Shown here one piece after another: positions 49,781 through 50,390 of a stretch of DNA of 64,000 nucleotides (positions within the stretch are counted from its first letter, which is position 1; each line of letters opens with the position of its first letter). Both the position numbers and the translations under genes were made by a program. The stretch covers positions 1-64,000 of the forward strand of contig MQRK01207056.1 in the NCBI GenBank assembly GCA_001938485.1, in the 5' to 3' direction. The stretch comes from Girardia tigrina. Lineage: Eukaryota. The notes beneath the pieces were generated by a model. The model did no database searches. It had not been told where the DNA came from and saw nothing but the letters and a program-made list of their open reading frames with translations.

Positions 49781-50390
49781 TGTGAGGAATATTTTAAATT
49801 TGGTATGTTGAAATTAGTTTGTTGAATTTGTATGTTGAGTTTAGTATTTGGAAATGTGTTTCTCCCACCCAGATGGAAAATTGATATTTTAGATGTTCAC
49901 GATAGATAATTATTCGAGTATAATTTACATTTTAAAGTACAGCATAAGATATGTAAAAACATTAAAAATATTAAATCTTTTCAAATCTTCATATTAAAAT
50001 TTAAATAAAAAAAATAGTTTTAACTAAGTTTTGAATTAAATAAATGTTCTTTCTTTACGTAAAATAATTTTTAAATAAAATTTATATGTAAATAAAATTA
50101 ATGCTAAAATTACAAAATTTGAACTTTAAAAATAAAATCTGAAAATAATGAAAAATTTGTTCGAATAATTGTTTATTAAAAAACATTAATAAAAAATTAT
50201 CTATTTAGAACGATGTCGAATAACGAGAGTTTTGCTGAGAGTTGTCCAAAAGACAATTCTGATTGTATTGAAAATAAAAGTTCGAAAACCCATGTTGGTG
50301 TTCTTAATAGGGTGAATATTATTTACATAACACATTAGTGGAACAGAACAAACAAACCTACGAGTTATTCAAAATCGATGATAGCAAGAT
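49781..50390 (+). repeat. Dispersed cassette copy C
   Basis: TGTGAGGAATATTTT...CTCCCACCCAGATGGAAAATTG, TAATTATTCGA (49907) / TCGAATAATT (50161), ATG at 50213 MSNNESFAESCPKDNSDCIENKSS...VGVLNR. Confidence 0.8.

What the first reader, a model, noticed from the sequence alone, without database searches (positions are those of the whole stretch)
49781..50390. Multi-copy cassette: conserved non-coding block, IR-bounded hypervariable spacer, fast-evolving Cys peptide (about 7 copies in 64 kb)
Seen: copies at 5395(-), 9541, 10872, 15490, 34238(-), 49781 and 51225, plus fragments at 10199 and 13992. The layout is TGTGAGGAATRTTT...TCTCCCACCCAGATGGAAAATTG, then TTATTCGA, about 200-250 bp of unalignable AT DNA, TCGAATAAT, and a conserved ATG 383-432 bp from the start in the four complete copies. 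The ATG frame stays open in five copies even though A and C differ at about a third of positions. Indels are in whole codons except in D. The peptides keep Cys residues, most carry N-x-S/T sequons, and E (partly B) continues into a hydrophobic stretch. A-versus-C differences are spread evenly over codon positions. Inference: a rapidly diversifying small membrane/surface protein family dispersed together with its own promoter, possibly mobilised by or derived from an LTR element.
Basis: partly seen in the sequence, partly recalled or inferred. Interest (0 to 1): 0.75.

Follow-up and report, generated by a model that had tools for sequence, protein, structure and literature searches.

The report
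Solo LTRs carrying Gag's start codon
The repeated cassette is the leftover end-repeat (solo LTR) of a family of gypsy-type jumping genes in an animal genome, and its short cysteine-rich "peptide" matches the first 30 or so amino acids of the element's capsid protein Gag, which is likely translated from a start codon inside the repeat; it is not a host surface-protein family.

Summary
The copies are real, but they are long terminal repeats of a Ty3/gypsy retrotransposon family. The element is 49781-50309, not 50390. Three of four complete copies have exact 5-bp target-site duplications. About 200 contigs per run break off at exactly these two ends. One copy starts directly after an integrase frame and polypurine tract (57554), another ends in a TGG primer-site-like motif before integrase. 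The peptide is the N-terminus of Gag: copy A matches 28/32, copy B 27/31 residues of 379-388-aa proteins with zinc knuckles and a capsid-like fold. All seven Gag lineages found carry this 26-49-residue extension before an invariant N-M-A-T junction. The hydrophobic tail of copy E is flanking DNA. Copies differ by a third because they come from different lineages. Translation from the LTR ATG is inferred, not shown. Gag starting inside the LTR is known from yeast Ty1, and this scan noted it before in microsporidian gypsy elements. Small twists: TG..TA ends in 5 of 8, and a sequence-variable inverted repeat around the AT-rich middle. Mostly ordinary.

The parts
49781..50309 (+). Solo LTR, copy A (529 bp, TG..TA)
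   Evidence: Ends fixed by loose ends of 198/245 and 181/225 contigs at 49781 and 50309 and by an exact 5-bp duplication
49776..49780 (+). Left target-site duplication of A (GGGTG)
50310..50314 (+). Right target-site duplication of A (GGGTG)
50213..50309 (+). ATG and first 32 codons of gag inside LTR A; frame runs 9 codons on into flank
   Evidence: 28/32 identical to the N-terminus of Gag P0154; read-through
49906..49917 (+). Upstream arm of the internal inverted repeat of A
   Evidence: pairs with the downstream arm in MFE and centroid; duplex better than 300 of 300 shuffles
50161..50172 (+). Downstream arm of the internal inverted repeat of A
10872..11371 (+). Solo LTR, copy B (500 bp, TG..TA), 5-bp duplication TGGTA
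   Evidence: peptide 27/31 identical to Gag P0135
33747..34238 (-). Solo LTR, copy E (492 bp, TG..CA), 5-bp duplication GTAAT; hydrophobic tail lies outside
51225..51696 (+). Decayed LTR, copy C (472 bp), frameshifted, no duplication recognisable (2/5)
   Evidence: last 20 codons 10/20 to Gag P0152
5010..5402 (-). LTR copy D, 5' end missing, ends in CA
15490..15800 (+). LTR 5' two-thirds (copy F); end coordinate approximate
16448..16538 (+). LTR 3' fragment (copy H), one in-frame stop, ends in CA; possibly the rest of F after an insertion (flanks match only 2/5)
   Evidence: 20/26 to Gag P0153
9524..9644 (+). LTR 3' part (copy G), followed at 9645 by TGG, a primer-site-like motif
   Evidence: 19/32 to Gag P0155
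9645..10196 (+). Primer-site-like motif and gypsy integrase fragment (internally deleted element)
   Evidence: Pfam rve E 2e-9; tblastn to P0126
10190..10253 (+). LTR 3' fragment G2, 86% identical to G over 58 nt
13992..14009 (+). LTR 5' end only
   Evidence: weak (3.7 bits)
56938..57553 (+). Broken gypsy integrase C-terminus ending in polypurine tract AAGGGGA (57547-57553)
   Evidence: 89% identical to pol P0121; junction
57554..57569 (+). LTR 5' end directly after the polypurine tract
   Evidence: 14 of the first 14 nt equal to copy A
57566..57763 (+). gag fragment of the same family (range as aligned)
   Evidence: 64% identity over 66 residues to P0135, E 4e-20

Best explanation
The cassette is the LTR of a high-copy Ty3/gypsy retrotransposon family, left behind mostly as solo LTRs, and its open frame matches the N-terminus of the element's Gag, which is likely translated from an ATG inside the LTR. 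Shown: fixed ends, 5-bp target-site duplications, a polypurine tract before one copy, and peptide identity with Gag N-termini. Inferred: full elements integrated and then lost their interior by LTR-LTR recombination; transcription starts in the LTR upstream of the ATG; ribosomes read about 32 codons of LTR, cross the LTR end and primer site in frame (N-M-A-T) and continue into capsid and zinc knuckles. Selection in active elements would keep ATG and frame but not the residues, which gives whole-codon indels with dN/dS near 1. The window's copies differ by a third because each descends from a different lineage, not because each decayed in place. In a solo LTR the frame runs into whatever flank follows and stops by chance.
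For: Exact 5-bp duplications in 3 of 4 complete copies, chance 0.0043 each; no cross-copy flank pair reached 5/5. Loose ends of 181-245 contigs per run pile up at 49781 and 50309 with flank agreement 0.42-0.43; summed depth 2.7-6.2 million over the element against 64-116 in the next bin. Integrase, then AAGGGGA, then the LTR start at 57554, then a gag fragment. 10 of 12 pol relatives end in RGM, which fits tract + TG + stop codon at the LTR start; they have PR-RT-RH-IN order and Ty3 Gag-Pol as best solved match, E 2.5e-98. A profile of five window peptides found 6 proteins in 1.84 billion, one a 379-aa protein matched at residues 1-31 with a CCHC knuckle and a capsid-like fold: Copia CA Z 11.1, rmsd 2.4 over 88; PEG10, dArc2, Ty1 CA-CTD Z 9.0-9.9. 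7 of 7 Gag cluster representatives have a 26-49-aa extension before invariant N-M-A-T, at 33% mean identity against 55% in the capsid part. Copies pair with separate lineages (A 28/32, B 27/31, G 19/32, H 20/26). ATG-to-end length is 1 modulo 3 in 6 of 7 copies; 1 stop in 8 copies where 1.6-1.9 are expected per relative at mean pairwise distance.
Against: No full-length element was seen; the Gag and Pol proteins come from unnamed contigs whose DNA I could not read, so the link between gag, pol and LTR rests on the window's junctions and on protein ends. Copy C has no duplication and F/H flanks match 2/5. 5 of 8 3' ends are TA, not CA. The priming tRNA was not identified. A second in-frame ATG sits at the LTR/primer-site junction in all 7 lineages, and 2 of 14 members of the P0135 cluster were called from it, so it may be the real start. 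The LTR-encoded codons are T-rich at position 3 (0.62), unlike internal gag and integrase (A 0.43-0.50). Two other frames are nearly as open (5 and 3 stops). Foldseek gave no match at E <= 0.001 (best dArc1, E 0.012), model mean pLDDT 55, and Z 11 is within the range the tool warns about for helical proteins.
Confidence: 0.92

Rival explanations
1. Same solo LTRs, but Gag really starts at the ATG formed at the LTR/primer-site junction; the upstream frame is an untranslated, three-periodic part of U5 that stays open as a by-product.
For: Junction Met invariant in 7 of 7 lineages; extension predicted disordered, pLDDT under 50 for residues 1-44; third-position composition differs from the rest of gag; dN/dS 0.79; two other frames nearly open. 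Slippage in a three-periodic tract would also favour whole-codon indels (inference).
Against: An in-frame upstream ATG without stop in 7 of 7 lineages at 33% identity, with one invariant Cys; a frame of this composition is open by chance 4-6% of the time.
Confidence: 0.2
2. A host family of small, fast-evolving membrane or surface peptides that travels with its own promoter.
For: Conserved ATG, open frame, Cys residues; copy E reads on into 26 mostly hydrophobic residues; four short database proteins begin with or hold the peptide.
Against: Homology stops at the element end; every tail, the hydrophobic one included, is unrelated flank beyond a target-site duplication; the four short database proteins also diverge right after the same Asn; the shared part is Gag.
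Confidence: 0.02
3. A non-autonomous DNA transposon (Ginger-like or MITE) or a TRIM rather than solo LTRs.
For: Very high copy number, about 500 bp, TG start, 5-bp duplication, internal inverted repeat.
Against: No long terminal inverted repeats (the ends match only imperfectly over about 9 nt); no paired short repeats inside the unit; a copy starts exactly at a polypurine tract after integrase, and the 3' end is in frame with gag.
Confidence: 0.03

Closest known systems
Solo LTRs of animal Ty3/gypsy (Metaviridae) retrotransposons
   Same: Ends fit the published integrase motifs: 5' TGTGAGG fits TGTNANR (rGmr1), 3' CTTAACA of two copies fits CNTNACA (Sushi) (PMC3601003, Table 3 in section 10); 5-bp duplication; polypurine tract; PR-RT-RH-IN order; capsid plus CCHC Gag.
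   Different: Gag frame begins about 32 codons inside the LTR; 5 of 8 3' ends are TA; clade not assigned (no tree against reference clades was built).
Ty1 of Saccharomyces cerevisiae (Ty1/copia)
   Same: The primer binding site lies inside the GAG frame (PMC4974528, passages), so GAG starts upstream of it, in the LTR (inferred from that and recalled); solo LTRs are abundant and presumably arise by LTR-LTR recombination (PMC7055915, passages).
   Different: Other superfamily and kingdom; the LTR-encoded part here is 26-49 residues, Cys-rich and variable, and a second Met sits at the junction.
Non-canonical TG..TA LTR elements of plants
   Same: TGTA is a reported terminal type (10.1101/137141 and PMC9804982, passages).
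   Different: Reported there mostly for Copia in plants; here in an animal gypsy family, where CA and TA ends both encode the invariant Asn of Gag.
Microsporidian Ty3/gypsy elements
   Same: Earlier unchecked notes of this scan report gag starts inside their LTRs.
   Different: Published as single-polyprotein elements in microsporidia-specific groups (PMC4202319, passages); here Gag and Pol were called as separate proteins, the host gene next door is animal-like, and no sequence look-alike was found among the scan's notes.

Membership tests
LTR / solo LTR | 5' terminus TG | tested here: met
   7 of 7 5' ends start with TG; contigs break at 49781
LTR / solo LTR | 3' terminus CA | tested here: inconclusive
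   CA in 3 of 8 ends, TA in 5 of 8; TG..TA is a reported non-canonical type
LTR / solo LTR | 4-6 bp target-site duplication | tested here: met
   exact 5 bp in 3 of 4 complete copies; chance 0.0043 each
LTR / solo LTR | Interspersed repeat with sharp ends and unrelated flanks | tested here: met
   181-245 contigs with loose ends at each end in two runs, flank agreement 0.42-0.43
Ty3/gypsy retrotransposon | Polypurine tract directly before the 3' LTR | tested here: met
   57547-57553 after integrase; 10 of 12 pol relatives end in RGM
Ty3/gypsy retrotransposon | Primer binding site directly after the 5' LTR | tested here: inconclusive
   TGG follows copy G and is implied by invariant N-M-A-T; no tRNA gene available to test pairing (one search found none in the window)
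Ty3/gypsy retrotransposon | pol order protease-RT-RNase H-integrase | tested here: met
   P0126 and P0130, 68% and 56% identical to the window integrase; best solved match Ty3 Gag-Pol
Ty3/gypsy retrotransposon | Gag with capsid fold and zinc knuckle | tested here: met
   zf-CCHC 22.4 bits over cut-off 20.8; capsid proteins fill the top 28 rows of the fold search
Ty3/gypsy retrotransposon | Full-length element between two near-identical LTRs | not testable with these tools
   No genome held; only a deleted pair G/G2 at 86% over 58 nt in the window
Host membrane/surface peptide family | Shared signal peptide or transmembrane segment inside the family unit | tested here: not met
   Hydrophobic tail only in E (partly B) and outside the element
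DNA transposon / MITE / Ginger | Long terminal inverted repeats | tested here: not met
   Ends match only imperfectly over about 9 nt in 4 of 4 complete copies

The most novel reading that the evidence does not exclude
This gypsy family has scattered hundreds to many thousands of ready-made modules (promoter, ATG, about 32 Cys-rich codons) that read into flanking DNA, and some are transcribed and translated as chimeric peptides, such as the hydrophobic one at 34238, making the family a nursery for new genes; or the hypervariable Cys-rich Gag leader, paired with a conserved long-range stem in the LTR, is a host-facing module under diversifying selection.
Probability: 0.12. Interest if true: 0.55.

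Novelty: new variant of a known kind. Interest (0 to 1): 0.25.

Why it matters
Practically: these solo LTRs mimic a small fast-evolving gene family and are already called as short proteins in public databases (4 of 6 hits), so they should be masked in annotation; LTR finders that demand TG..CA would miss the TG..TA lineages. Biologically: it extends the Ty1-like overlap of LTR and gag to an animal gypsy family and shows that such an overlap can keep a frame while residues drift. This is a modest addition, not a new kind of system.

Tried and rejected
No whole genome held, so no genome-wide count or tree of copies. Rfam gathering scan and tRNA scan of the window: nothing. ESM Atlas for peptide A: best 0.84, below the lead level. 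Run search: no RNA holder listed; X22 (RNA is a guess) gave 3 contigs under 90% alike, which says nothing on expression. No joint for an empty insertion site appeared among the 15 of 230 joints shown, so polymorphism is untested. Pattern scan of metagenome contigs: 1 match, a GC-rich bacterial contig L001, judged chance. Viral contigs with pol P0121: none. P0137, one of the 6 profile hits, is a repeat protein and was dropped as chance. I first read the upstream block as an intron (GTGAGG..CAG) or spliced-leader acceptor; rejected because the GT is part of the LTR terminus and no frame is conserved after CAG. I first read the inverted repeat as merely two copies of one 12-nt palindrome; that fits A, B, C, E but not F, whose different arms still pair. 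Whole-spacer folding is not unusually stable in A (z -0.98) and moderately so in B (z -2.49). Literature searches for a gag start inside animal gypsy LTRs listed no paper whose title or abstract start reports it; these are phrase searches of an open-access library and do not show that it is unpublished. PMC13709905 (passages) held nothing on the point. One search timed out; searches failed on a pattern slip and were rerun.

Full report
Setting. The window is AT-rich and holds fragments of mariner, Tc1-like and gypsy elements around one ABCF2 gene whose best matches are animal proteins, mostly molluscs and annelids among the named ones, at up to 78% identity. The organism was not identified and no whole genome is held.

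The copies are real. Profiles of the upstream block and of the ATG block recover each left-out copy far above shuffled controls (6 of 6 and 6 of 6) and add a 3' fragment at 16448-16538. The middle part is 85-91% AT and aligns above chance in 3 of 15 pairs.

The unit has fixed ends. Similarity begins abruptly at TG (TGTGAGG) and ends at TTAA(C/T)A. Copies A (49781-50309), B (10872-11371) and E (34238-33747, minus) are each flanked by an exact 5-bp duplication, GGGTG, TGGTA and GTAAT; the chance of one such match in this window is 0.0043, and no flank of one copy matched another copy's 5/5, though A against G and H reached 4/5. Copy C has none. Contigs of two DNA runs laid on 49300-52100 (39,474 and 33,449 contigs) give summed depth 2.7-6.2 million over A against 64-116 in the bin after it, and loose ends pile up at exactly 49781 (198 and 181 contigs) and 50309 (245 and 225) with unrelated flanks. 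Summed depth is not a copy number; the junction counts give a floor of about 200 insertions of A-like copies, and thousands are likely (inference).

The unit belongs to a gypsy element. At 56938-57553 a broken integrase frame ends in AAGGGGA, followed without a gap by the first bases of the unit (57554) and, after a deletion, by a gag fragment. A second copy (G) ends at 9644 before TGG and an integrase fragment, then a second partial copy. The window integrase has 12 relatives at 41-89% identity; two that I scanned have protease, RT, RNase H and integrase in gypsy order, and the best solved match is Ty3 Gag-Pol. Ten of the 12 end in RGM, as expected if the tract is followed by TG and a stop codon at the LTR start. 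The ends fit published integrase motifs of animal gypsy LTRs (PMC3601003, passages and section 10 with Table 3). Five of 8 3' ends are TA; TG..TA is a known rare type, mostly in plant Copia (10.1101/137141 and PMC9804982, passages; the preprint's Supplementary Table S2 was not seen and may list gypsy cases).

The peptide is the start of Gag. A profile of five window peptides found 6 proteins among 1.84 billion: four short ones that diverge right after the shared Asn, one repeat protein (dropped as chance), and P0135, 379 aa, matched at residues 1-31. P0135 has a CCHC knuckle; its model (mean pLDDT 55, 70-84 in most of residues 51-200) matches capsid proteins of Copia, PEG10, dArc and Ty1 best (Foldseek only E 0.012). 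Its 7 cluster representatives, itself included, all have 26-49 residues before an invariant N-M-A-T, which corresponds to the LTR end plus TGG. The extension averages 33% identity, the capsid part 55%, the knuckles 75%. Each window copy pairs with its own lineage: A with P0154 28/32, B with P0135 27/31, G and G2 with P0155 19/32 and 16/21, H with P0153 20/26, C with P0152 10/20; D and E have no close partner (15/32, 15/29). This explains how copies with intact duplications can differ by a third.

How it likely works. Shown: the frame runs from an ATG in the last 100 nt of the LTR across the LTR end into Gag. Inferred: it is translated in full elements, so active lineages keep ATG and frame (length 1 modulo 3 in 6 of 7 copies; 1 stop in 8 copies) while residues drift (dN/dS 0.79). 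Against: a second ATG at the junction is invariant and could be the true start; two other frames are nearly open; third-position composition is unlike internal gag; database starts are automatic calls. I put the upstream start at about 0.8. In solo LTRs the frame continues 9-26 codons into flank; the hydrophobic tail of E is such flank.

The internal inverted repeat is real but unexplained. The arms pair better than shuffles in A (0/300), E (0/300), F (2/300), C (7/300), weakly in B (38/300), not in D (243/300). F has different arms that still pair with each other (-23.8 against -5 to -16 kcal/mol with other copies), but the overall own-partner test is borderline (44 of 720 permutations), and I chose the windows. 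It may be an RNA stem or paired protein-binding sites.

Comparison. It is a member of the Ty3/gypsy LTR elements by duplication, tract, pol order and Gag; primer tRNA and clade were not determined. In the overlap of LTR and gag it works like yeast Ty1, whose primer site lies inside GAG (PMC4974528, passages). Two unchecked notes of this scan describe the same overlap in microsporidian gypsy elements; I saw them after reaching this reading and found no sequence likeness. Three phrase searches listed no report for animal gypsy elements, which is weak evidence.

Verdict. Observation largely right, interpretation wrong in its main point. Solo LTRs of a gypsy family with an LTR-internal Gag start: a new variant of a known kind, interest 0.25.

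Noticed in passing
window 16763-25305 (-): ABCF2 gene with GC-rich exons (about 25305-24630, 20374-19721, 17375-16763) and two introns of about 4.2 and 2.3 kb at 11-19% GC, full of imperfect internal repeats; an extreme exon/intron contrast.
   Followed up: partly
window 58075-58540 (+): A second gypsy integrase C-terminus ends in the same tract (AAAGGGGA) followed by TG but a different sequence (TGTTATA..), probably the LTR of a sister family.
   Followed up: no
window 49300-49487: Another high-copy repeat just upstream of copy A (summed depth 19,000-86,000), not identified.
   Followed up: no
   Followed up: no
window 49776-49780, 10867-10871, 9645-9649, 16539-16543: Four flanks share NGGT(A/G), which may be a target preference or, for 9645, the primer site; E does not share it.
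   Followed up: partly
window 60871-61776 (+): A 301-codon open frame without a Pfam match at E 0.001.
   Followed up: no
window 391-537: Tandem 21-nt repeat, at least 7 units beside an assembly gap.
   Followed up: no
proteins P0121-P0157: Close relatives of this gag and pol (up to 89% identical) sit in metagenome assemblies, where some are named 'transposase InsO family' or called as short hypothetical proteins.
   Followed up: partly
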